DNA from: an uncultured Bdellovibrionales bacterium
GTDB taxonomy: Bacteria; Bdellovibrionota_C; UBA2361; SZUA-149; CALKYB01
NCBI GenBank assembly: GCA_964510575.1
Contig: CAZECN010000005.1
Span: forward strand, 18,518 to 82,517
Length of the DNA stretch: 64,000 nucleotides
Direction: 5' to 3'
Shown here: in pieces, positions 1,807 through 42,306 of the stretch
Position numbering within the stretch: the stretch's first letter is position 1
How the letters are laid out: each line of letters begins with the position of its first letter
Made by a program: the position numbers and the translations under genes
The notes under the pieces: generated by a model
Databases searched by the model: none
What the model saw: only the letters and a program-made list of their open reading frames with translations
What the model was told of the DNA's origin: nothing

Positions 1807-2739
1807 ATGGCAACGCGATTTGGAGCATCTAGTCCGGCGCAAACATACGCTACCAAAGTAAGGTGGCTTGTTGGTTTTTTGATTGCGGTGATCACACTTT
1901 TATTTTTGACGTTATTTTACGTGGTGCAAGGTGGGGGCGGAGAGCAAACTGCATCCACTGAGCCAGGTGGTGAAGCTATTCAAGCTGCGAGTGGTGAGTT
2001 AAGTCCGACTACGAAAATCCTTTATGCAAACCAAAGAATTGAAGAGGGTGTGCAAATGACAGAAGCAATGTTCTCTGCTTGGGATGTGCCTTCCGATCGT
2101 ATTCCGGAGGGGGCGATGAAGGAAACTCAAAAAGCTGAAGTAGTAGGTAAATTTTCACAAGCTATAATCAGTGCGAATGTTCCTATTTTACGTGATAGCT
2201 TAGGCGAAGCTAAGAAAGGTGGGGTTATAAACATACCTGCCGGATACAGAGCGGTGACAATAAATATTAGTGCCCGAAGTGGTGTTTCTGGTTGGGCTAA
2301 GCCTAATTCAAGAGTTGATGTTCTTTGGGCTTACACAGACAAAAATAGTAGAGAGAAGAAAGTTTCTACTATTGTGAGATTCGCAAAGGTTCTGTCTGTA
2401 GGTGGAAATAACCAGTCAGGGGATAAAGCAGCGGTCAATCAACAAGGGACTACTGCAACTCTTTTGGTTACTAAACGCGAAGCCAAAAAGATTGAACTTG
2501 CTAGAACATTGGGAAGTCTAACTCTTTCACTAGTTGGACAACAGGAAGAAGTTGTCGGTGACGATGCTTCAAATGATGTGGTTGATATCTCTGACCTAAC
2601 GGGAATAGATGATTCGCAAGTTGGTGAGGCTGAAGAAGAGCCTAATGACGGTGTGATGTATTCAACGGATCCTCGTACTGGTAAAAAGACTCGCTACATT
2701 CTTAAGAATAACAGATGGGTTCCTGACAAGAGTTACTAG
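1807..2739 (+). CDS. cpaB: Flp pilus assembly protein CpaB/RcpC
   Basis: N-terminal TM helix, then a SAF-like segment (ILYANQRIEEGVQMTEAMF) and an RcpC/CpaB core (GYRAVTINISARSGVSGWAKPNSRVDVLW). Tad gene context. Confidence 0.8.
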   Translation: MATRFGASSPAQTYATKVRWLVGFLIAVITLLFLTLFYVVQGGGGEQTASTEPGGEAIQAASGELSPTTKILYANQRIEEGVQMTEAMFSAWDVPSDRIPEGAMKETQKAEVVGKFSQAIISANVPILRDSLGEAKKGGVINIPAGYRAVTINISARSGVSGWAKPNSRVDVLWAYTDKNSREKKVSTIVRFAKVLSVGGNNQSGDKAAVNQQGTTATLLVTKREAKKIELARTLGSLTLSLVGQQEEVVGDDASNDVVDISDLTGIDDSQVGEAEEEPNDGVMYSTDPRTGKKTRYILKNNRWVPDKSY

Positions 2740-2756
2740 GCTTTTCAGGAGAGCTG

Positions 2757-2775
2757 CCGGGTTCGCCCGGTTTTT
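2757..2775 (+). terminator. Short GC hairpin plus T5 between cpaB and cpaF (possible attenuator)
   Basis: CCGGG-TTCG-CCCGG followed by TTTTT, located inside the tad gene run. Confidence 0.5.
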
Positions 2776-2821
2776 AAATTTTGGTTTTGTTTATTGGATT
2801 TGATTAAAAGGGACTTTTAAA

Positions 2822-4351
2822 ATGTCAAAAAAAGGCGGCGGAAAGGATCAAGACACTTTAATCGACTTATTTTCCACTAGGTCTAGAGATGGCCAGGAAG
2901 AGGCTCCAGGTATCCCTGAGCAAACTTCCGACTCTAAGGCTAATATGTCACCTGAAGTGGTTGAGAAAGCGAATACTCCTCTTACGACGAAAGCTCCATC
3001 CAAGCGAGCTTCAGGTGGAAGTACTGAGGCTAAAAGTAAAGAGGCGCGGAAGGAAAACAAAAAGGTCAACCTTTCTCCTGTTGCGACAAAGGTGCTGAAA
3101 GAAACCCGTAGAGAACTCGGGAACTCTGGTGAAATTGATGTTGGAGAAGATATCTCTGAGACTCAGATTGCCGCAGCAGTTGATAAGGTTTGCGCTGACC
3201 AAGGGCTTGTCATTGATGATATTGTAAGAGCCGATATCATTGTTCACTTAAAGAGAGACTTGATGGGTTGGGGGGTTTTACAATCCCTGGTGGATAATCC
3301 GGAAGTTACAGATATCCATGTTTATGATTACCAAACAGTAGTTCTTCAACGTGGTAAGAAGAGTGAGACAACTGGTCTTCACTGGCCTTCGCATGAATCC
3401 TACACCACTTTTATTGACCGAGTATTGTTTCGCTTGGGAAAAAGTCTTTCAACTCAGCAGCATACGGTTGACGCGGCTTTTTCTGATGGGAAAAGACTTT
3501 GCGTAATTCATGAATCCGTCTGTGGATCTCGCGGACCATTCATGACAATGCGTGTTCCAAGAGTTCAAGATGCTACTTTGGAAAGTCTAGTTTCCTTTCA
3601 AGTGATGCCTCCTCTGATGGTTAACTACTTGGCAGCGATGGTCAGAAGTTGTGAGCATACTTTCATGGTCGCTGGTGAAACTGGAACTGGTAAGACTACT
3701 TTGATGAGATGTCTGGGGACCCAGTTCGGTCCTGATGAAAGTATCGTTGGGGTAGAGGATACACCTGAACTAAACTACCAGCACCCTTATTATAGAAGCC
3801 TAGTTTCCAGGACTGCCAACAACGAGGGAGTAGGTGAGGTTACTCTTCAGGAGCATATTAAGGCTACTCTTCGTATGTGTCCTACTAGAGTAATTCTGGG
3901 AGAGATGAGAACTCCAGAAGCAGCCGAGTCTTTTTTAGAGGCTGCTCAGACAGGTCACTCAGGAATGTCTACTGTACATGCTAGAAACGCTAGGGAAACT
4001 CTTACCAGACTAGAGAGTTTGCTGGGTCGTGCTCAGAGAGGTGTTTCGATGGATATTATTCGACAGCAGATTGCCTTGGCAGTTGATGTTTGTATTTGGA
4101 ATGTCAGGGAGAAGGTTTCGGGGCGAGTAAGGTGTGGTGAGATTATTGAAGTTGGTCATTTTGTAGAGGGTAGTATTCAGATCAGACCGATGTTTAAGCT
4201 TGTTCAGGAAGGAGAAAATCCAGTTTGGGAGGTTCAATCCTGGTCAAGTAACTACGAAGAAGTTTTAGAGAAAAATGGCATTGTTCTTGGTGATGCGCCA
4301 CAGTTCCTTTCTTTCGGAAATATGGGCGGTGAAGCATCCGGCCGAGGATAG
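2822..4351 (+). CDS. cpaF: Tad secretion ATPase CpaF/TadA (VirB11/GspE superfamily)
   Basis: Walker A VAGETGTGKTT, Asp box, LGEMRTPEAA, His box QTGHSGMSTVHA. There is a disordered Lys/Glu/Ser-rich N-terminal extension of about 100 aa. Confidence 0.9.
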   Translation: MSKKGGGKDQDTLIDLFSTRSRDGQEEAPGIPEQTSDSKANMSPEVVEKANTPLTTKAPSKRASGGSTEAKSKEARKENKKVNLSPVATKVLKETRRELGNSGEIDVGEDISETQIAAAVDKVCADQGLVIDDIVRADIIVHLKRDLMGWGVLQSLVDNPEVTDIHVYDYQTVVLQRGKKSETTGLHWPSHESYTTFIDRVLFRLGKSLSTQQHTVDAAFSDGKRLCVIHESVCGSRGPFMTMRVPRVQDATLESLVSFQVMPPLMVNYLAAMVRSCEHTFMVAGETGTGKTTLMRCLGTQFGPDESIVGVEDTPELNYQHPYYRSLVSRTANNEGVGEVTLQEHIKATLRMCPTRVILGEMRTPEAAESFLEAAQTGHSGMSTVHARNARETLTRLESLLGRAQRGVSMDIIRQQIALAVDVCIWNVREKVSGRVRCGEIIEVGHFVEGSIQIRPMFKLVQEGENPVWEVQSWSSNYEEVLEKNGIVLGDAPQFLSFGNMGGEASGRG

Positions 4352-6475: not shown

Positions 6476-8680
6476 ATGGGCGGTTTGTCAAAAATATTTT
6501 CACCAGTATTAGCAACCTTTGACAGGCTAGGGCGTTCGGGATTTTTTGTTTCACTGCTTCTTCTTGTAGTAATTTCACTTTTTTTAGTTCCACTTCCACC
6601 AATCCTTCTTGACTTACTCCTAGTTCTCAATATCGTGGTTGCCCTAGTTTTGTTGTTGCGTAGTCTCTATATGAGTGAGCCCTCTGCCCTCTACGCTTTT
6701 CCCACCATACTTTTGATGACAACTCTTTTTAGACTGGCTCTTAATGTCAGTTCTACAAGGCTTATTCTGTTGGGAGGCAAGGACAGTCTTGGAGCCGCAG
6801 GTAGCGTAATTGAATCATTCGGTACTTTTGTTGTTAAGGGAAATTTCGGAGTTGGTGCGATTATCTTTGCCGTGATTGCGGTTGTGAATTTTGTAGTAAT
6901 TGCAAAAGGTTCCGCAAGGGTCGCTGAGGTGTCAGCAAGATTTGCCTTGGATTCATTGCCTGGACGTCAATTAGCAATAGACTCTGATTTAAGAGCTGAG
7001 ACAATTACTCGAGAACAGGCAGAGTTTCGACGAGAAGAACTGCGCAGAGAGTCTCAGTTTTTCGGATCTATGGATGGTGCGATGAAGTTTGTGCAAGGTG
7101 ATGCCATTGCAGGCTTTGTCATAACTTTTATCAACTTGATTGGTGGTGTTGCTATAGGAATTAGTGCCGGAATGGAGTTTCCCGAAGCCATTAATACCTT
7201 TGGTTTGCTGACTATTGGGGATGGTTTAGTTGGCATTATTCCTTCTCTACTAATATCGGTTTGTGCCGGAATCATAGTAACCCATGTGGGAGGATCTGAT
7301 AACCAATCGAGCGGGAGTCAGGTTTTTCAGCAGTTGTTAGGAGACCCGGGAGCCTTAGTAATGGCAGGTTTGGTGCTAATACTACTAGGTATTATTCCAG
7401 GATTTCCTTTTATTCCGTTTTTCGGGGTGGGCTTGTCAGTGCTTCTTTTAGGTTCAATGGCTTGGGGATTTTTAGGAGGAGGTTCTCGCAACTCTCCAGT
7501 GAAAGTTAGATTAAATAATCTTCAAACTCCTACTGCGCAGCTGGGTAGTGGTTTTGGAACTGGATTGCCTGCGATGCCAAGTCAAAGTATGGCCCCTTCG
7601 TTGGAATACTTTAGGCTTAAGCCTCTCGTTGTTGAAATGTCTTCGAATAACTTGAGTGGGGCGGGTAAGTTTTTAGAGGAAGATTTTACTAGGTATTTTA
7701 ACCTGCTTCGTGACCGAGTTTATAAAACTAAAGGACTTCTTGTGCCTGAGGTTTCTTTTTTGGAAGGTTCAACTCTTGGCGAGGGTGATTTTTCTCTTGT
7801 CGTGAGGGAAAGGAATATAAAAAATATTACCTTGAACGAAAACCATCATTTCGTTTCACTCAGTCCCGGACAGTTAGGAACTTTGGGAATTCCGGCTACC
7901 AATCATCAAACTCATCCTTTAACTTGTTCTGGAAGTTCATGGATTGAATCGAGTGATGTTACCGAGGCTACTCTACAGAGATTGGGGGTGGAACTTATCA
8001 ACCCATCTCAGTACCTGGCCTTAGAAGTTATTGGGGCCGCCATTTCTAATATCGATTCTATATTTGGTTTATCTGAAGTGTCTCGACTTGTAGAAATTAG
8101 TAAAGCTACCGATGCGAGATTAGTAGCTGAGGTATTCGATGGAGAGGTCGTGTCTGTAGCTGAATTCTCTGACTTACTTCGAAAACTTGCCCGAGAAAAT
8201 TTGTCGGTGAGAGATATTAAGCAAATTATGGAAGGAGTCTTGGAGTATCACTCCAGAACTCCGGAGACTGAGGATAGACAGGATTGGCTTTCTGGGCTTC
8301 ATGAGCACCTTCGCTTGATCTTGGTAGGCTCTTTGGTTGGTGAGATGAACGGAGAAAGTGACTTTTTTGCTTTTGGTTTATCTGCTGAAGTTGAAGATGA
8401 GTTTCGCTCTGCTGTATCTATGTGGGATTCTCCTCGTTCAAGGTTGCCTTTAGATCCAGATATTTCTAGGGGGATTAAGCGATCTTCCAGTCTACTTTTT
8501 GCTCCAGTTTTAGAGAGAGGGGCTTCGCCAGTGGTAGTACTTTGCCCTGGAGAAATTAGACTTGCCGTTCAAGAATATTTTGTTTCTCAGTATGATTCTT
8601 CAGTTTGGTTTAGAACCGTAGCACATGAAGAACTTGATGAAAGATTTAACGCTCAACTAGTAGGAGTAATTAATGCCTGA
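6476..8680 (+). CDS. sctV: Type III secretion export gate protein SctV (FlhA/FHIPEP family)
   Basis: 734 aa. Hallmark FHIPEP motifs: FPTILLMTTLFRLALNVSSTRLIL, KGSARVAEVSARFALDSLPGRQLAIDSDL, FFGSMDGAMKFVQGDAIAG. Followed by a linker and a cytoplasmic C-terminal domain. Confidence 0.9.
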   Translation: MGGLSKIFSPVLATFDRLGRSGFFVSLLLLVVISLFLVPLPPILLDLLLVLNIVVALVLLLRSLYMSEPSALYAFPTILLMTTLFRLALNVSSTRLILLGGKDSLGAAGSVIESFGTFVVKGNFGVGAIIFAVIAVVNFVVIAKGSARVAEVSARFALDSLPGRQLAIDSDLRAETITREQAEFRREELRRESQFFGSMDGAMKFVQGDAIAGFVITFINLIGGVAIGISAGMEFPEAINTFGLLTIGDGLVGIIPSLLISVCAGIIVTHVGGSDNQSSGSQVFQQLLGDPGALVMAGLVLILLGIIPGFPFIPFFGVGLSVLLLGSMAWGFLGGGSRNSPVKVRLNNLQTPTAQLGSGFGTGLPAMPSQSMAPSLEYFRLKPLVVEMSSNNLSGAGKFLEEDFTRYFNLLRDRVYKTKGLLVPEVSFLEGSTLGEGDFSLVVRERNIKNITLNENHHFVSLSPGQLGTLGIPATNHQTHPLTCSGSSWIESSDVTEATLQRLGVELINPSQYLALEVIGAAISNIDSIFGLSEVSRLVEISKATDARLVAEVFDGEVVSVAEFSDLLRKLARENLSVRDIKQIMEGVLEYHSRTPETEDRQDWLSGLHEHLRLILVGSLVGEMNGESDFFAFGLSAEVEDEFRSAVSMWDSPRSRLPLDPDISRGIKRSSSLLFAPVLERGASPVVVLCPGEIRLAVQEYFVSQYDSSVWFRTVAHEELDERFNAQLVGVINA

Positions 8681-32441: not shown

Positions 32442-32455
32442 TTGCCTCTGCCTTG

Positions 32456-34417
32456 ATGGCAACTGACTTTTTTCAAAAACAGGAAGCAGCAAAGGTAAAT
32501 ACCTTTTGGCTTGTCTCATGCCTGTTGCTGGGGCTCTTAGTTCTAAACCTAGCGATCTACTTGGCTGTTGTTGTCATTTTTACTCTTTTTAGATCTGGAC
32601 CAGTAAGGGTCGATAGGTCTGGCGAGCTAGCTAGCTCTTTGTTTCAGCCTGATATTCTAGTTATTACGGTTCCTTTTATAACAGGGTTGATTGTTCTTTG
32701 CAGCCTTTACCGAATGTTCACATTGCGAGGTGGTGGTCAAAAAGTTGCTGAAGGACTTGGGGGAGTTCTTATTCACCCTGATACAACTGATGTTGAAGAG
32801 AAACGTCTTATCAATGTTGTCGAAGAGATGGCTATTGCCTCAGGTATGCCAGTTCCTCCGGTTTATTACTTGCCTCGTGAAAGAGGTATAAACGCTTTTG
32901 CTGCAGGTTTTACCACGAGGGATGCTGTTATAGGTGTCAATCGCGGAACTTTAAAGCATCTTACAAGGGATGAACTTCAAGGTGTGATTGCCCATGAATT
33001 TAGCCACATACTGAACGGAGATATGAGGCTTAATTTGAGGTTGATGGGAGTTCTATTCGGACTTATTGCCCTAGGTATTTTCGGGAGACTTTTGGTTAGA
33101 GTTAGTCAGCGCAGAAGTTGGGATGACAGAGACAATGGAACACCACATCTCTTAGTATTAGGGTTGGTGGTTTCAGTCCTTGGATATTTAGGCCACTTAG
33201 TTAGTTCTGTTATTAAAGCTGCAATTTCAAGACAAAGAGAATACCTAGCAGATGCCTCTGCAGTTCAGTTTACTCGTAGTCCCGATGGTATCGCTGGGGC
33301 GCTAAAAAAAATTGGAGGTTATGTTGAAAGCTCCAAGGTAGATAATCCTTCCGTTGAGGAAGCAAGTCACATGTTTTTTGCGCTTCCTGTTGTTCCGAGG
33401 TTTCAAAGATTATTTTCTACCCATCCACCTTTAGTTTCCCGAATTCAGGCCATTGACCCATTATTTGATGGTGAGTTTCCTGCCTTAGATGGTAAATCCT
33501 ATTCATCGCAAAAATCTTTGGCTAGCAGTTTTTCTGGGGCTGAGTCTGCCAAGTTAGAGCCTGAACCATTGCTAGAACGAGTGGGTACTTTGGGTTGGGA
33601 ACAAACTCTTCTTTCTAAGCAAATTATTGAATCAATTCCAATTGGCTTGAAGAGAGCTGCAGGAGAACCTCATGGGGCGTGTTCTTTAGTTTTTGCCTTA
33701 TTGCTTGATGAGCAAGATCCTGAAGTTATGAGAAAGCAACTTTCTGTCATAGATCAGAGGTTACCTTTTGGAATGTCTAGAGAGATTTCTGGTTTGATTG
33801 GGGATGCCCGGCAACTTAAGCCGGCTTTGAAACTTCCAGTTGTAGAGCTTGCTTTGTCTAGTTTAAGGCAATTGAGTCAATCTCAATATCTTGGTTTCAG
33901 TCAAATAGTTCGAGAGCTTGCTAGTTTAGATAAAAATATTTCAGTCTTTGACTATGTGCTGCAGGTGATTTTGCTAAGAAGCTTGGAGCCAGTTTATAAA
34001 GGCCGAATATCAAAGAGGGTTAGGTATCGTTCGCTTTTCTCCCTAAAAAGGCAGGCAGCAACAGTTCTATCTGTTCTTTCAGCTGCGGCCACCAAACAAA
34101 TAAATAATTCATCAGCCAGTGAACAGAGTACACAGGCTTTAAAACGAAAAACTTTCCTTGCTGCGATTAGCCAGTTAGAAGAATTGGGTAAAAGTGATTT
34201 TCAAGATTTAGGCCTTTGTCTAAAGTCTCTAGATCAGGCTTTAGCGGCTTTAGCTCTGGCCTCACCAAGTATTAAGAAACGGGTGGTTGCTGCAGCGATC
34301 GCTTCTATTAACTTGGATCAACAGGTGACTGTGATAGAGCTAGAATTGTTGCGAGCAGTTTGCGAGAGTTTGGACTGTCCGATACCACCTTTTATCCGAA
34401 ATTTTAGAGATAGCTAA
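32456..34417 (+). CDS. M48-family zinc metallopeptidase with a long helical C-terminal domain
   Basis: N-terminal TM helices, HEXXH as IAHEFSHILNGD, downstream REYLADASAVQFT. About 330 aa of additional C-terminal helical region. ATG 32456 preferred over the adjacent TTG 32453. Confidence 0.8.
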   Translation: MATDFFQKQEAAKVNTFWLVSCLLLGLLVLNLAIYLAVVVIFTLFRSGPVRVDRSGELASSLFQPDILVITVPFITGLIVLCSLYRMFTLRGGGQKVAEGLGGVLIHPDTTDVEEKRLINVVEEMAIASGMPVPPVYYLPRERGINAFAAGFTTRDAVIGVNRGTLKHLTRDELQGVIAHEFSHILNGDMRLNLRLMGVLFGLIALGIFGRLLVRVSQRRSWDDRDNGTPHLLVLGLVVSVLGYLGHLVSSVIKAAISRQREYLADASAVQFTRSPDGIAGALKKIGGYVESSKVDNPSVEEASHMFFALPVVPRFQRLFSTHPPLVSRIQAIDPLFDGEFPALDGKSYSSQKSLASSFSGAESAKLEPEPLLERVGTLGWEQTLLSKQIIESIPIGLKRAAGEPHGACSLVFALLLDEQDPEVMRKQLSVIDQRLPFGMSREISGLIGDARQLKPALKLPVVELALSSLRQLSQSQYLGFSQIVRELASLDKNISVFDYVLQVILLRSLEPVYKGRISKRVRYRSLFSLKRQAATVLSVLSAAATKQINNSSASEQSTQALKRKTFLAAISQLEELGKSDFQDLGLCLKSLDQALAALALASPSIKKRVVAAAIASINLDQQVTVIELELLRAVCESLDCPIPPFIRNFRDS

Positions 34418-39457: not shown

Positions 39458-40072
39458 ATGAAAAATTTTCTCTTACTTAGCTCAATTATTTTCTTTTTTT
39501 GCATTGAAGAAGATGTTCATGCTCAGTGCAAGAACTCTGAGTTTTCGATTGAAATAGAGAAAAAAGATGCTGAGGCAGGGGCCTTGGGGAATTTCTGGGG
39601 CAGTAAGAACTCGCTAAATGCTATAGTGATGCAAGTCGTGGATAAGTCTTTTAAGGGTTTTTCCTCTGCAAAGCCTGAGGGCTGCGGAGAAAAATGTTCT
39701 AGTTCTGAAGCTCAAAAGAGAATCAGAGTGACACCTACCTCGAGATTGTCTGACTATGCAGAAAAGGAAGCCTGTCAAAAATACTTAGATCAAACAACTA
39801 GCTCCCCTATACATTTTGTCTCACCAGATTTTTCCAACAAAGATGAGTTTGGAGAATGGTTTGCTGATTTATCTCAAGGTAAAGGCCAGGCTGGAAAAAA
39901 GCTCTACCGGCTTTGTCCAGGTAAATGCAGTCCATCTTATTCAGTGGTTCTTGAGGATAAGGAAGCTAATAACTACCTAGCCAAAGTTTCAGCAGTTTGT
40001 GGGCATGCTAGAAACAAGTCTGATAACAAGTATCAGGTCATTTCAGAATACTTTTGGCAATGTAAGGAATAG
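39458..40072 (+). CDS. Secreted Cys-rich hypothetical protein
   Basis: Signal peptide (MKNFLLLSSIIFFFCIEEDVHA), eight further Cys residues, no recognisable family. Confidence 0.5.
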   Translation: MKNFLLLSSIIFFFCIEEDVHAQCKNSEFSIEIEKKDAEAGALGNFWGSKNSLNAIVMQVVDKSFKGFSSAKPEGCGEKCSSSEAQKRIRVTPTSRLSDYAEKEACQKYLDQTTSSPIHFVSPDFSNKDEFGEWFADLSQGKGQAGKKLYRLCPGKCSPSYSVVLEDKEANNYLAKVSAVCGHARNKSDNKYQVISEYFWQCKE

Positions 40073-40073
40073 T

Positions 40074-40294
40074 TATACTGAAACCATTTTAAATTTCGTG
40101 TTTGGCTAAAGCTTACATGAGGTTTCAGTATACGCTTTGCGTAAGCAAAGCCACTAGACTCATATATCTCGTCTAAAAATATGCTGAGAAGCGCAGCTTC
40201 GCAAGAAAATCATAAGATCCAGTGAAAATTCTAAGATTACAACTTTTTTTGTCAAGAGCTTCGCTCTTGTAGGTATATTTCAGGTTTCAGTATA
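40074..40294. repeat. TATAC-hairpin long form (221 bp), TIR TATACTGAAACC/GGTTTCAGTATA, with embedded short unit 40074-40132
   Basis: The opening TIR is at 40074-40085. Its complement occurs at 40121-40132 and again at 40283-40294. Internal hairpins: GCTTTGC-GTAA-GCAAAGC (40134-40151), GAAGC-GCA-GCTTC (40188-40200) and CAAGAGC-TTC-GCTCTTG (40253-40269). This is the mirror-image layout of 20762-20983. Confidence 0.8.
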
Positions 40295-40323
40295 TTTGTT
40301 GTCTGGCAGTGCTATGCACTGCT

Positions 40324-40379
40324 TATACCCCATTACGACAGGTACGGAAAAAGCCGTAATTTAAAGTAGACGGGGTATA
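40324..40379. repeat. TATAC-hairpin short unit, TIR TATACCCC/GGGGTATA
   Basis: Inverted copy of 20982-21037. It ends 1 nt before the stop codon of the convergent olsF-like gene. Confidence 0.8.
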
Positions 40380-40380
40380 T

Positions 40381-42306
40381 CTATTCTCTATCTTGATGGT
40401 ATTTAAGAAACTTAGCCGCCTCGAATTCGCCTAAGTACTTATTTAATAGTCTTCTGTCGGCTTTGCTGAAGTCTACGACGATCAATCCATCAAGCGCTCC
40501 GTTGAAATCATGGTCTACGTTGAAGCCAATAATTTTCCCGCCCAGTTTGGTGTATTCTTTTAAAAGAACTGGAACGCCCATTTCCTTTAGCTCTATGTCT
40601 TGTATTAATTCTGATACCTCAGAAATATCTTTAACTGTTTTGGAGAAGAACTCTTGATCGATTCCTAGAACTCGTTCCGGCTCTGATGAGGTTCGAGGTC
40701 GGACATGTTGAGCCAATAGAGGCTGGAAATTATTTTCTCTTAGAAATAGTTCTAAAAGATGTCTTGATACGCCAGTGAAGGAGCCGCTAACGCTGACGGG
40801 CCCAAACATAGTCTTGTAATCTGGATTAAGCGCTACAAAATTGGAAAGACCTTTAAGTAGTAGCATTAGAGGCCAGAGGGTGCGTTGATACTCTTGAGCA
40901 ACAAAAGACCTGCCAACCTCGAGGCTTGGCCCCAGCTCTTTTAGGAGGTCTTTGTTGTAGTGAAAAAGAGTGTTGGTATAAAGTCCTTTTAGACCATAGG
41001 AGGCAACAGCTTCGTCAGTCTTGACTACACGGTATGCTCCAACAACCTTCTTTGCTTTTCTGTCCCAGCAAATTAGATGTTTGTAATAACTGTCAAAAAA
41101 ATCGAGATCGCATTCGGTTCCTGTTCCTTCACCAACATCTCTGAAGGTAATTTCTCTGAGTCTTCCCACCTCTTGTAGAAGGTTGGGTGATTCTGCCATT
41201 GTGGTTATTGCAACTGCTAGATCGTTTCTTTCTATTAGTATTTTTTCATCAGATATTGCAGAAAAATCTTGTTCTAGAAGATTAGAGGCGACCGGATCAA
41301 TGATCTCAGAAGTGAACTCGGAAATAGGGCTTTTAGTTCTCTTGTTAACTTCATGGACTTTTATTGGGCTATTTTTTTGAAGATAACAGCGCATTCTCAG
41401 ATAATCTGTTAGCTCTCGGTTACTTTCGAAACGCTTTAGTTTTTCAGCAACAATAGGCTTCCCAATTTGTATAGCGATAGTCTTATTCTTTTTATTCAGT
41501 AGTTGCCTTGGCAACAGCATGGTTCTTAGTATCGGGTGGATCAGACCAGCGAGTTGAAATACGAGACTGTTTCTTCCATGAATGAAGCAAGGAACAACTG
41601 TGGCACCAGTTTTTTTGACAAGTCTTGCGATATTGGTATTCCAGATCGGATCTTGAACTTCTCTTGAGCTGGTATGAAAATGAGAGACTGTTCCAGAGGG
41701 AAAAGTAATTAGGGCATGGTCATTCTTAAGCCAAGAAAGAGCCTCTCTCATTGGATTGACATTGTCTTTTTTAGATTTCTCTCGCTCGAAAGGATCAACT
41801 AGTATGAATAGATCTTTCGCAGGCTTAAGTCTGCCCAACATAAAGTTTGCGAGAAACTTTAAATCAGGTCGTTCTTTGCGAATGACCTCATACATGACAA
41901 GAGCCTCTAAGGCTCCAAAAGGGTGGTTTGATACAATAATTAGCGGGCGGTCCTTGGGTAGCTTTATGCTGGCCGTTGGAAACAGTTCATAATTTACCCC
42001 AAGATGTTCCAAGGTCGTCTTGAAGAATTCAGTTGGGCCATTCCAGGGAGGCATTTCATCGTAGCCTTTCTCCAGTTGTGAAAGGCACAACATTCTTTTG
42101 ACTGCTGGAAAAATGAAACGAAAGGTAGGCCTTAACTTTTCCGGTATTGGAAGTTTATCGGGGTCTACACTAAAAGGGTTAGGAAAGTCTTCGGGATGGC
42201 AAAGTTCTATCCTAGACTCAGCTTTCTCAGACCCACCCTTTTCAAATTCGGTTTCGTTATTGGTTTTTACAAGCTTCGTAACTTCTTTTTGTTTCTTCGA
42301 ATCCAA
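40381..42306 (-). CDS. Bifunctional acyltransferase: N-terminal PlsC/LPLAT domain plus C-terminal GNAT-like (OlsB-like) domain, OlsF-like ornithine/aminolipid synthase
   Basis: 641 aa. The N-half has the LPLAT motif IIVSNHPFGALEA and FPSGTVS. The C-half resembles hemolysin-like/OlsB N-acyltransferases (LREITFRDVGEGTG...DSYYKHLICWD). This two-domain order matches what is described for OlsF. The start is uncertain because of a 50-nt overlap with the upstream patatin gene. Confidence 0.6.
   Translation of the reverse strand: MDSKKQKEVTKLVKTNNETEFEKGGSEKAESRIELCHPEDFPNPFSVDPDKLPIPEKLRPTFRFIFPAVKRMLCLSQLEKGYDEMPPWNGPTEFFKTTLEHLGVNYELFPTASIKLPKDRPLIIVSNHPFGALEALVMYEVIRKERPDLKFLANFMLGRLKPAKDLFILVDPFEREKSKKDNVNPMREALSWLKNDHALITFPSGTVSHFHTSSREVQDPIWNTNIARLVKKTGATVVPCFIHGRNSLVFQLAGLIHPILRTMLLPRQLLNKKNKTIAIQIGKPIVAEKLKRFESNRELTDYLRMRCYLQKNSPIKVHEVNKRTKSPISEFTSEIIDPVASNLLEQDFSAISDEKILIERNDLAVAITTMAESPNLLQEVGRLREITFRDVGEGTGTECDLDFFDSYYKHLICWDRKAKKVVGAYRVVKTDEAVASYGLKGLYTNTLFHYNKDLLKELGPSLEVGRSFVAQEYQRTLWPLMLLLKGLSNFVALNPDYKTMFGPVSVSGSFTGVSRHLLELFLRENNFQPLLAQHVRPRTSSEPERVLGIDQEFFSKTVKDISEVSELIQDIELKEMGVPVLLKEYTKLGGKIIGFNVDHDFNGALDGLIVVDFSKADRRLLNKYLGEFEAAKFLKYHQDRE

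What the first reader, a model, noticed from the sequence alone, without database searches (positions are those of the whole stretch)
40073..40380. Second, inverted copy of the hairpin mosaic: long-form elements share architecture and show compensatory stem changes
Seen: region 40281-40380 is the reverse complement of 20981-21080, with 88 of 100 positions identical by manual alignment. The 59-bp unit 40074-40132 matches 21067-21124 in reverse complement at about 90%. The 221-bp long form 40074-40294 (arms TATACTGAAACC) has the same layout as the 222-bp long form 20762-20983 (arms TATACTCAACC), although most of the interior sequence differs. Hairpin 1 starts 13-15 nt inside the outer arm. Exactly 52 nt separate hairpins 1 and 2 in both. 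Hairpin 3 sits 1-3 nt from the embedded short unit. The stems co-vary: CAAGACC/GGTCTTG versus CAAGAGC/GCTCTTG, and GCCATGC-TAAC-GCATGGC versus GCTTTGC-TTAC-GCAAAGC in the same orientation. Like the first locus, it exactly fills a convergent gap, running from 2 nt after one stop codon to 1 nt before the other. Inference: this is a structured element about 220 nt long with variable 'address' arms. Conserved geometry with diverged sequence is more typical of a functional RNA or DNA structure than of a recently spread MITE.
Basis: seen in the sequence. Interest (0 to 1): 0.6.

Follow-up and report, generated by a model that had tools for sequence, protein, structure and literature searches.

The report
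IS630-derived miniature transposon mosaic
The 306-bp hairpin-rich block that fills the gap between two convergent genes is a non-coding deletion derivative (a MITE) of an IS630-family insertion sequence. It is an ordinary kind of selfish DNA rather than a dedicated RNA gene, although the transposon ends it inherited are unusually elaborate.

Summary
The inverted copies, the 221/222-bp "long forms", the spacings and the compensatory stem changes were all confirmed.

The unit is a 306-bp composite, 40074-40379: hairpin Unit, H1 hairpin, linker, inner arm, centre with two hairpins, inner arm, linker, H1, Unit. About ten other loci in related metagenome-assembled genomes carry the same composite at 302-307 bp.

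The same architecture, with a 345-aa IS630-family transposase (Pfam DDE_3 plus HTH domains) in place of the ~130-nt centre, occurs in metagenomic contigs. Three full-length insertion sequences (ISs) share it.

A relative with 86-88% amino-acid identity in the flanking proteins lacks the element at both window loci. There the convergent genes overlap by 4 bp at one locus and lie 17 bp apart at the other. Its ~31 kb of syntenic DNA contains no family copy.

Elsewhere the copies lie between convergent, tandem and divergent genes.

Stem covariation is strong: 87.5% of cells paired against 69.9% after shuffling, with 0 of 500 shuffles reaching the observed value. But the parent ISs have the same stems, so they belong to the transposon ends.

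Verdict: a MITE of the IS630 family.

One thing is unexplained. The 7-nt "arms" are cross-matched between the inner and outer ends of opposite sides. Interest is low to moderate.

The parts
40074..40132 (+). Outer hairpin Unit, arm class TGAAACC. Layout: TATACTGAAACC, then the core ATTTTAAATTTCG..., then GGTTTCAGTATA. It is the terminal inverted repeat plus a proximal inverted copy of the terminus.
   Evidence: 12-nt perfect arms. R1 hit at 40074-40167, 83.3 bits. 92% inverted copy at 21066-21124.
40134..40151 (+). H1 hairpin GCTTTGC-GTAA-GCAAAGC. The linker CACTAGACTCA follows at 40152-40162.
   Evidence: The same 7-bp stem with a 3-4-nt loop occurs in every subfamily with the middle three pairs changed (AGT/ACT, CAT/ATG, TTT/AAA).
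40163..40174 (+). Inner arm TATATCTCGTCT, a degenerate copy of the arm of the opposite outer Unit (TATACCCCGTCT).
   Evidence: 6 of 7 variable nt match the opposite outer arm.
40188..40200 (+). H2 hairpin GAAGC-GCA-GCTTC, followed by GCAAGAAAA. It corresponds to the hairpin at the 3' end of the transposase gene in the full-length ISs.
   Evidence: collinear alignment with the right ends of L173 and L181. The motif GAAGCGNAGCTTCGCAAGAAAA recurs in the copies in other genomes.
40201..40252 (.). 52-nt centre, the remnant left where the parent IS carries the transposase ORF.
   Evidence: No ORF of 50 aa or more lies inside the element.
40253..40269 (+). H3 hairpin CAAGAGC-TTC-GCTCTTG. It corresponds to the 5' untranslated side of the parent IS.
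   Evidence: Variants CAAGACC/GGTCTTG, CAAGTCC/GGACTTG and CAAGGCC/GGCCTTG occur in other copies.
40283..40294 (+). Inner arm GGTTTCAGTATA, a perfect complement of the outer arm at 40074-40085.
   Evidence: 7 of 7.
40295..40323 (-). Linker plus H1 hairpin of the second half. Read on the minus strand: AGCAGTGC-ATA-GCACTGCCAGACAACAAA.
   Evidence: The inverted copy lies at 21038-21066.
40324..40379 (-). Outer hairpin Unit of the second half, arm class CCCGTC. Read on the minus strand: TATACCCCGTCT, then the core ACTTTAAATTACGG, then ...GGGGTATA.
   Evidence: R1 hit at 40290-40379 (minus strand), 83.1 bits..
40228..40255 (-). Promoter-like site TTGACA-16-TAGAAT on the minus strand. It points towards gene 39458-40072 in antisense. 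Its function is not shown.
   Evidence: 11 of 12 positions match. It is kept at 9-10 of 12 only in the two closest copies, L036 and L018.
20677..20983 (+). Sister locus: a full 307-bp composite of a different subfamily (arms TGCGCC and TCAACC).
   Evidence: It is 81% identical over 330 bp to L012 in another metagenome-assembled genome.
20982..21124 (+). Sister locus: a collapsed composite (arms CCCGTC and TGAAACC) that lacks the centre. It shares the TA at 20982-20983 with the preceding composite. It is the inverted relative of the two ends of 40074-40379.
   Evidence: R1 hits at 20982-21071 on the plus strand and 21033-21125 on the minus strand.

Best explanation
Window 40074-40379 is one non-autonomous transposable element (a MITE). 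It is an internal-deletion derivative of an IS630/Tc1-mariner-family insertion sequence (IS) that has kept both complex ends and lost the transposase gene.

Shown:
1. It is an insertion. It is absent from the orthologous site in a close relative.
2. It belongs to a multi-copy family found in several genomes, in unrelated intergenic sites.
3. Full-length relatives have the same module order, with an IS630-family DDE transposase in the centre.
4. The terminal motif TATA[CG] + 7 nt + an A/T-rich core ending in CG(G) is the terminal inverted repeat of this transposase clade. A simple annotated copy on an Allochromatium plasmid has it too.

Inferred:
- A transposase supplied in trans by a full-length copy binds the core. 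It cuts at the TAC/GTA termini and pastes the element into a TA dinucleotide, which is duplicated.
- Insertion is favoured beside existing family ends. This builds side-by-side mosaics that share one TA.
- The 55-59-bp Unit is an outer terminus plus an inverted copy of it, so it is itself a minimal two-ended transposon.
- Direct repeats of the 11-12-nt arms promote deletions that give the collapsed forms.
- The hairpins (Unit, H1, H2, H3) are structural parts of the transposon ends. They have been kept through subfamily divergence because they serve transposition or its control, not a host RNA function.
- Any effect on the two flanking genes is incidental. Candidates are 3'-end stem-loops, altered C-termini and a possible antisense promoter.
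For: Insertion polymorphism:
- In contigs whose flanking proteins are 86-88% identical, the acyltransferase and the 207-aa gene overlap by 4 bp (L056 11899-11902).
- The orthologues flanking window 20674-21128 lie 17 bp apart there (L190 5208 to 5226).
- More distant relatives have gaps of 55, 31 and 81 bp.
- Model R1 finds no copy in any of these loci.

Family:
- The genome-collection scan found the unit in 8 loci of MAG (metagenome-assembled genome) CALIEE01, 12 loci of MAG CALKYB01 and 1 locus of MAG JABDDC01.
- Composites of 302-307 bp recur. Examples are L036 at 84% identity over 307 bp and L012 at 81% over 330 bp, with no homology in the flanks.
- Contexts are convergent, tandem and divergent.

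Parent element:
- L173 122-1435 has Unit, H1, linker and inner arm on each side of a 345-aa ORF. The ORF matches Pfam DDE_3 (1.9e-33), HTH_33 and HTH_29.
- Homologues are named IS630 family transposase by NCBI.
- L181, L182 and L183 have the same layout.
- L183 carries a full-length IS and ~305-bp composites with the same A arm on one contig.
- The window element aligns collinearly with both ends of L173 and L181.

TA and termini:
- Six identical 1482-bp copies (L184-L189) are each bounded by TA and lie in (G/A)TA|TA|TAC. Three of them sit beside Unit-like sequences.
- Adjacent units in the window share a TA (20982-20983).
- Removing the element plus one TA gives AGATAACTATTCC, which aligns with AACTAACTACCTCC at the empty site.
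- The Allochromatium vinosum pALVIN01 copy has the simple terminal repeats TATAC-CGCTCTC-ATTTGATTTTTTCG and TATAC-CGATCTA-ATACCAATTTTTCG.

Not a known RNA:
- No Rfam family reaches its threshold.
- There is no terminator-like site.
Against: - No transposase of this clade lies in the 64-kb window or in the loci held from the two MAGs richest in copies. A source of transposase in the same genome is therefore not shown.
- The TA duplication cannot be separated from the TATAC terminus, and the gene ends at the filled and empty sites have diverged. TA as the target-site duplication is inferred for this family, not proven.
- Copies are 81-92% identical, so this is not a recent burst. The elements may now be immobile.
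- Strong structural covariation in H1 and in the arms, and the cross-matched inner and outer arms, are more than a plain protein-binding inverted repeat needs. What the hairpins do is unknown.
Confidence: 0.85

Rival explanations
1. A dedicated structured non-coding RNA or DNA element of about 220 nt, with variable 'address' arms that specify a target.
For: - Both strands fold far better than shuffles: -99.9 kcal/mol (z = -7.4) and -91.5 kcal/mol (z = -5.7).
- Covariation in the arms and in H1 is significant.
- The geometry is conserved at 61% sequence identity.
Against: - It is absent from both orthologous sites of a close relative.
- It is multi-copy, occurs in both orientations and lies between genes of any orientation.
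- The same modules flank a transposase gene.
- The arms are discrete subfamilies repeated as inverted copies inside the element, and they are not complementary to the flanks.
- There is no Rfam match.
- Good folding on both strands is what a palindromic DNA element gives.
Confidence: 0.05
2. A REP/BIME- or REPIN-type mosaic, mobilised by a RAYT (an IS200/IS605-like tyrosine HUH transposase).
For: - It is a mosaic of short GC-rich hairpins in alternating orientation with fixed linkers, lying in intergenic gaps at gene 3' ends. This resembles BIMEs.
- H1 plus its linker resembles a REP with a fixed flanking motif.
Against: - The conserved terminal tag is TATAC, not GTAG or CGTC (PMC3733652).
- The associated protein is a DDE_3 IS630 transposase, not a Y1 transposase.
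- The elements have terminal inverted repeats bounded by TA.
Confidence: 0.03
3. An exapted host element: a bidirectional transcription terminator or mRNA 3'-end stabiliser between convergent genes. This would be a secondary function on top of a mobile origin.
For: - Both window loci exactly fill convergent gaps.
- Long stem-loops would sit at both 3' ends.
- Correia and ERIC elements are reported to affect the stability of flanking mRNAs (PMC2229807).
Against: - There is no stem followed by a T-run on either strand.
- The relative manages with overlapping or 17-bp-spaced genes.
- Other copies lie in tandem and divergent gaps.
Confidence: 0.12
4. Chance similarity, or an assembly artefact of a metagenome bin.
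For: The window comes from a metagenome assembly.
Against: - The same element recurs in independent assemblies from ENA, NCBI and JGI.
- The motif count is far above shuffles.
- The covariance-model hits score 78-95 bits.
Confidence: 0.01

Closest known systems
MITEs of the IS630 family, for example RUP of Streptococcus pneumoniae (ascribed to IS630-Spn1)
   Same: - Short and non-coding.
- Terminal inverted repeats shared with an IS630-family IS.
- TA at the termini and at the target.
- Intergenic and multi-copy.
- Tends to land in or beside other mobile elements (PMC2229807).
   Different: - About 306 bp against 107 bp.
- Each end is a ~90-bp module (foldback Unit, H1 hairpin, linker) plus an inner end.
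- The arms differ between the two ends and are cross-matched with the inner ends.
- The host is a different phylum.
Correia repeat-enclosed elements / NEMIS of Neisseria
   Same: - TA-bounded MITE.
- The terminal repeat has the same layout. Correia: TATAG TGGATTA AATTTAAACCGGTACGG. Here: TATAC TGCGCCT CATTTAAATTTCGGTATTC (PMC5039591).
- Long and short forms differ by an internal segment.
- Transcripts fold into long stem-loops (PMC2229807).
   Different: - 104-157 bp, with a single pair of 26-bp repeats and no Unit/H1 modules.
- The resemblance rests on about 18 of 27 positions and was not tested on Neisseria DNA.
- From memory only, not checked here: no cognate transposase has been reported for Correia elements.
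- This is not a membership claim.
IR-DR ends of eukaryotic Tc1-like transposons (Sleeping Beauty, Tc3). From general knowledge; not tested here.
   Same: - The same transposase superfamily (DDE, TA target).
- Long, complex ends with an outer and an inner repeat of the terminal motif on each side.
   Different: - In those elements the inner and outer repeats of one side are alike, and they are protein-binding sites.
- Here the inner repeat of one side matches the outer repeat of the other side.
- Here each outer end also has a nearby inverted copy that forms a hairpin.
REP / BIME / REPIN elements
   Same: Mosaics of small GC-rich hairpins with fixed linkers in intergenic DNA. Stems are kept by compensatory change.
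   Different: - Different terminal tag: TATAC rather than GTAG or CGTC.
- Different associated enzyme: a DDE IS630 transposase rather than a RAYT.
- True terminal inverted repeats with TA.

Membership tests
MITE (non-autonomous DNA transposon) | Small and without a coding sequence of its own | tested here: met
   306 bp. No ORF of 50 aa or more lies inside 40074-40379.
MITE (non-autonomous DNA transposon) | Terminal inverted repeats | tested here: met
   - The outer ends are TATAC + 7 nt + core on both sides.
- The 12-nt arm of each outer end is complementary to an inverted copy further in. For 40074-40085 both the proximal copy (40121-40132) and the inner copy (40283-40294) are perfect. For the CCCGTC end the copies are imperfect: 9 of 12 proximal, 6 of 7 variable nt at the inner arm.
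MITE (non-autonomous DNA transposon) | Many dispersed copies at unrelated sites | tested here: met
   61 model hits in the held loci from at least 5 assemblies. The flanks are not homologous.
MITE (non-autonomous DNA transposon) | Filled and empty sites among relatives | tested here: met
   Both window loci are empty in the relative with 86-88% identical flanking proteins.
MITE (non-autonomous DNA transposon) | Target-site duplication | tested here: inconclusive
   - TA lies at both termini, and the alignment with the empty site fits insertion at a TA.
- The flanks have diverged, and the TA is part of the TATAC motif.
MITE (non-autonomous DNA transposon) | A cognate autonomous element with the same ends | tested here: met
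   - L173, L181/L182 and L183 have the same end modules around an IS630 transposase.
- An IS and MITE composites lie together on contig L183.
- No autonomous copy was found in the window's own genome. Only the 64-kb window could be searched.
IS630 / Tc1-mariner family (as parent) | DDE transposase with N-terminal helix-turn-helix domains | tested here: met
   - Pfam DDE_3 (1.9e-33), HTH_33 (3.9e-17) and HTH_29.
- RefSeq names the homologues IS630 family transposase.
- This applies to the full-length relatives, not to the window element.
IS630 / Tc1-mariner family (as parent) | Insertion at TA with TA duplication | tested here: met
   - Six identical copies (L184-L189) are each bounded by TA on both sides.
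- That IS is a 53%-identity relative. For the window subfamily itself the test is inconclusive.
Correia / NEMIS | The 26-bp Correia inverted repeat and Neisseria-type internal sequence | tested here: not met
   Only the layout and about 18 of 27 terminal positions are shared. The internal modules differ. It is not filed as a member.
REP / BIME / REPIN | GTAG or CGTC tag beside the palindrome | tested here: not met
   The conserved tag is TATAC. Family definition from PMC3733652.
REP / BIME / REPIN | Association with a RAYT gene | not tested
   The held loci were not screened for Y1 transposases. The only transposases seen next to the repeats are DDE_3 (IS630 family) and DDE_Tnp_1.
Any Rfam RNA family | Match at or above the gathering score | tested here: not met
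   Only a tRNA in the whole window. Inside 39950-40500 only a sub-threshold miRNA hit, 21.8 bits against a gathering score of 100.

The most novel reading that the evidence does not exclude
The parent IS630 clade has an end architecture that I did not find described.

- Each outer terminus carries a nearby inverted copy of itself, and this foldback is the Unit.
- The 7 variable nucleotides of each outer arm are also repeated at the inner end of the opposite side (order A..B..A'..B').
- The arm pairs differ between lineages, yet the three copies of each arm co-vary.

One transposase must serve both the A and the B arm, so the co-variation suggests a step that depends on nucleic-acid pairing. 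That could be end synapsis or end choice through single-stranded DNA or RNA. Alternatively, two overlapping transposons with perfect 12-bp repeats may share one transposase gene.

A side possibility: this clade is the missing cognate transposase lineage of the Neisseria Correia elements, whose terminal repeat has the same layout.
Probability: 0.2. Interest if true: 0.6.

Novelty: new member of a known kind. Interest (0 to 1): 0.3.

Why it matters
For annotation, the two hairpin mosaics in this window should be labelled as IS630-family MITEs and not as candidate RNA genes. The same model (R1) will mask the family in related genomes.

For the host, the insertions replaced the last few codons of both convergent genes. 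They also put long stem-loops, and possibly an antisense promoter, at the 3' ends of those genes. MITEs commonly alter expression in this way.

For transposon biology, three features go beyond the usual picture of IS630 ends. These are the cross-matched inner and outer arms, the compensatory evolution of the end hairpins, and the resemblance of the terminal repeat to the Correia repeat. All three are cheap to test in vitro with one transposase and a few synthetic ends.

Tried and rejected
- **Autonomous copy in the held loci.** I looked for arm pairs 400-6000 bp apart. The only pair (L052, 1646 bp) is two separate elements around what reads as a transaldolase gene (judged by eye from the sequence, no search run).
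- **Transposase in the window.** tblastn of the L173 transposase against the window and all loci held at the time found nothing except L173 itself.
- **Truncated unit.** The unit at L018 ~6327 has no transposase nearby.
- **Extra copy in the window.** The apparent copy at 33998-34027 lies inside ORF 32453-34417, has no arms, and is taken as chance.
- **Host phylum.** My first guess was Chlamydiota, from a type-III-export hit and one MAG (metagenome-assembled genome) label. I dropped it. The cluster is flagellar (FliA-like sigma factor; FliP and FlhB next door in the relative), and the nearest named homologues are Bdellovibrionota MAGs.
- **JGI metagenome scan.** Nearly all were chance singletons, and only L095, L164 and L173 (and perhaps L078) belong to the family.
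- **RNAalifold.** On the raw MAFFT alignment it recovered only 5 arm pairs, because one subfamily has tandem G.A mismatches in H1. I therefore supplied the structure and realigned with a covariance model.
- **Arms as halves of a palindromic target.** Rejected, because six identical IS copies carry their arms into six different flanks.
- **Central recombination between two ISs.** This would give inner-left equal to outer-left, which is not what is seen.
- **Literature.** Searches for a described family in Chlamydiae, or MITE/REP terms, found nothing specific.

Full report
**1. The observation**

The sequence at 40073-40380 is as described.
- The repeat finder reports 20981-21079 against 40282-40380 as inverted copies (99 nt, 89%). 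It reports 21066-21124 against 40075-40133 as inverted copies (59 nt, 92%).
- A scan for TATAC...GTATA pairs with perfectly complementary extensions finds exactly five in 64 kb: 20677-20732, 20762-20983, 20929-20983, 40074-40132 and 40074-40294.
- The element starts one base after the stop of ORF 39458-40072 and ends one base before the stop of ORF 40381-42306.
- The motif TATAC-N9-TTTAAATTTCGG occurs 5 times against 0.21 expected by chance.

**2. Anatomy**

The short 55-59-bp Units share one layout: TATAC, a 6-7-nt variable arm, a conserved core (yTTTAAATTTCGG) next to one arm, then the complementary arm and GTATA.

Each Unit is followed on its core-distal side by:
- a 7-bp hairpin with a 3-4-nt loop (H1; GCnnnGC-loop-GCnnnGC);
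- a linker of about 11 nt (CCAnTAGACAGG);
- another TATAC plus arm.

Read this way, 40074-40379 is one composite. In order it contains Unit(TGAAACC), H1, linker, inner arm (a degenerate CCCGTC arm), H2, a 52-nt centre, H3, inner arm (a perfect TGAAACC complement), linker, H1, and Unit(CCCGTC).

A second long form on the other strand covers the right two-thirds.

Locus 1 holds a full composite of another subfamily (20677-20983; arms TGCGCC and TCAACC). Abutting it, and sharing the TA at 20982-20983, is a collapsed CCCGTC/TGAAACC composite without a centre (20982-21124). This collapsed copy is the inverted relative of the two ends of locus 2.

**3. Relatives elsewhere**

- A pattern scan of one genome per species found the Unit repeatedly in two uncultured-bacterium metagenome-assembled genomes (MAGs): CALIEE01 (8 loci) and CALKYB01 (12 loci). 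It occurs once in a MAG labelled Chlamydiae. All other hits were singletons without complementary arms.
- Composites of 302-307 bp recur in those MAGs. L036 is 84% identical to the window element over 307 bp, and L012 is 81% identical to locus 1 over 330 bp. In both cases the flanks share no homology.
- The arms fall into about ten discrete classes. Each class goes with its own H1 variant.
- A few Units are hybrids with non-complementary arms (L004, L014, L027).
- Copies lie between convergent, tandem and divergent genes, and always in intergenic DNA.

**4. It is an insertion**

- The flanking acyltransferase has an 86%-identical homologue on JGI contigs (P0002). There the acyltransferase gene and the orthologue of the 204-aa gene are convergent and overlap by 4 bp.
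- At the orthologue of locus 1 (P0242, 88%) the convergent genes lie 17 bp apart.
- More distant relatives have gaps of 31-81 bp.
- The covariance model R1 finds no family copy in about 31 kb of syntenic DNA from the close relative, nor in the more distant loci.
- In the window, both genes end in GAATAG one base from the element, and their C-termini differ from the relative. So the insertion reshaped both 3' ends.

**5. The parent element**

A metagenomic contig (L173) carries the same module order. On each side it has a Unit, H1, a linker and an inner arm. In place of the ~130-nt centre it has a 345-aa ORF on the minus strand.

The ORF matches Pfam DDE_3 (1.9e-33), HTH_33 and HTH_29. Thousands of 342-aa homologues exist. 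One is named IS630 family transposase by NCBI, and plasmid homologues in RefSeq carry the same name.

Further evidence from other copies:
- Full-length copies L181/L182 and L183 have the same ends.
- L183 also carries ~305-bp composites with the same A arm on the same contig.
- The window element aligns collinearly with the left and right ends of L173 and L181, including H3 on the 5' side and H2 at the transposase 3' end.
- A 53%-identical relative is present as six identical 1482-bp copies in one genome. Each is bounded by TA and has ~125-bp foldback ends. Each sits in the context (G/A)TA|TA|TAC, and three lie directly beside Unit-like sequences. This target preference explains side-by-side mosaics that share a TA.
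- The closest annotated copy, on Allochromatium vinosum pALVIN01 (48% identity), has plain terminal repeats of the same format: TATAC, 7 nt, then ATTTGATTTTTTCG.
- In the L010 Unit the two halves are near-perfect inverted copies of arm plus core. This shows that a Unit is two abutted termini.

**6. Structure and covariation**

- Both strands of the element fold much better than shuffles (z = -7.4 and z = -5.7), as expected for a pseudo-palindrome.
- On 61 copies aligned to model R1, 87.5% of pair cells are standard pairs, against 69.9% after shuffling partners.
- 14 of the 18 pairs show changes on both sides.
- 178 cells carry a double change, against 59 expected. None of 500 shuffles reaches the observed values, and sliding the partner by 1-3 columns drops pairing to 25-49%.
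- One subfamily replaces two H1 pairs with tandem G.A mismatches.

The compensatory changes are therefore real. But they occur equally in the full-length ISs, so they speak for constraint on the transposon ends and not for a host RNA gene.

No Rfam family matches. No terminator-like stem followed by a T-run is present. A promoter-like TTGACA-16-TAGAAT lies on the minus strand at 40255-40228, but it is kept only in the two closest copies.

**7. What remains unexplained**

In the three full-length ISs and in 10 of 13 composites, the inner-left arm equals the outer-right arm and the inner-right arm equals the outer-left arm (6-7 of 7 variable positions). The two outer arms share only 1-5 of 7.

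Each arm thus exists in three co-varying copies, and the arm pairs differ between lineages. One transposase must handle both arms, so recognition of the arm sequence by the protein does not explain this.

A step that depends on pairing, two overlapping transposons with perfect 12-bp repeats, and repeated nesting at the linker-TA-linker palindrome all remain possible.

The direct repeats of the arms do explain the collapsed forms as deletions (window 20982-21124, L002, L021).

**8. Comparison and verdict**

The element meets the defining features of a MITE. Its parent meets those of the IS630 family. Only the TA duplication is inferred rather than shown for this subfamily.

- It is not a REP/BIME: it has the wrong tag and the wrong enzyme.
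- It is not a member of the Correia family. However, the Correia terminal repeat (TATAGTGGATTAAATTTAAACCGGTACGG; PMC5039591) has the same layout as the terminal repeat here. That is a lead worth testing.
- The host is a flagellated bacterium whose nearest named relatives are Bdellovibrionota MAGs.

The finding is a new member of a known kind. It is of low to moderate interest, with a modest chance that the end architecture hides a new mechanistic feature.

Noticed in passing
window 20674-21128: The first locus consists entirely of two family elements that share one TA (20982-20983). One is a full 307-bp composite (arms TGCGCC and TCAACC). The other is a collapsed composite (arms CCCGTC and TGAAACC) that lacks the centre. 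The collapse is consistent with a deletion between the 12-nt direct repeats of the arm.
   Followed up: yes
window 40060-40073 and 40380-40393: Both convergent genes end in GAATAG one base from the element, as an inverted repeat. Their last residues differ from the element-free relative (RE* against KTKN*, and KE* against GEGGS*). The insertion seems to have landed in the overlapping stop codons and re-set both C-termini.
   Followed up: partly
window 40228-40255, minus strand: A near-consensus sigma-70-type promoter, TTGACA-16-TAGAAT, overlaps the 3' half of hairpin H3 and points antisense into gene 39458-40072. It is kept at 9-10 of 12 positions only in the two closest copies, L036 and L018.
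   Followed up: partly
L184-L189 (ENA ERZ25071427), positions ~2730-4211 of each locus: Six identical 1482-bp IS630-family copies with ~125-bp foldback ends. All six are inserted in (G/A)TA|TA|TAC, and three lie directly beside Unit-like sequences. This is a target preference for the ends of family members.
   Followed up: partly
L173 122-1435; L181 2844-4154; L183 2853-4152; window 40074-40379 and 20677-20983: The arms are cross-matched: inner-left equals outer-right and inner-right equals outer-left, while the two outer arms differ. This is conserved in the full-length ISs and in the MITEs, and I have no explanation for it.
   Followed up: partly
Family terminal repeat (for example window 40074-40100) compared with the Neisseria Correia repeat quoted in PMC5039591: The Correia repeat TATAGTGGATTAAATTTAAACCGGTACGG has the same layout as this clade's terminal repeat (TATA[CG] + 7 nt + ATTTAAA..CGGTA). 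This may point to the transposase lineage behind Correia elements.
   Followed up: no
L004 12-73; L014 573-628; L027 2424-2480: Hybrid Units whose left and right arms belong to different subfamilies and so form no stem. They look like recombinant or dead copies.
   Followed up: no
L018 2438-2729: One composite carries roughly 70 extra bp with its own hairpin (CAAATGC-GACAA-GCATTTG) between H1 and H2. It is the only copy that breaks the conserved spacing.
   Followed up: no
L173 1434-2273: A second, unrelated transposase gene (Pfam DDE_Tnp_1, IS4-like) begins at the TA that ends the IS630-family element. This is another case of mobile elements stacking at these termini.
   Followed up: no
window 6476-8680 and 21455-22333; L190 6278-8756: The 'type III secretion' hit is a flagellar export cluster (FlhA-like protein and FliA-like sigma factor, with FliP, FliQ and FlhB in the relative). 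The nearest named homologues are Bdellovibrionota MAGs, so the host is probably not a chlamydia, even though one family copy lies in a MAG labelled Chlamydiae.
   Followed up: partly
window 33998-34027: A 30-nt stretch with 77% identity to a Unit end lies inside ORF 32453-34417. It has no arms and no model hit, and is taken as chance.
   Followed up: yes
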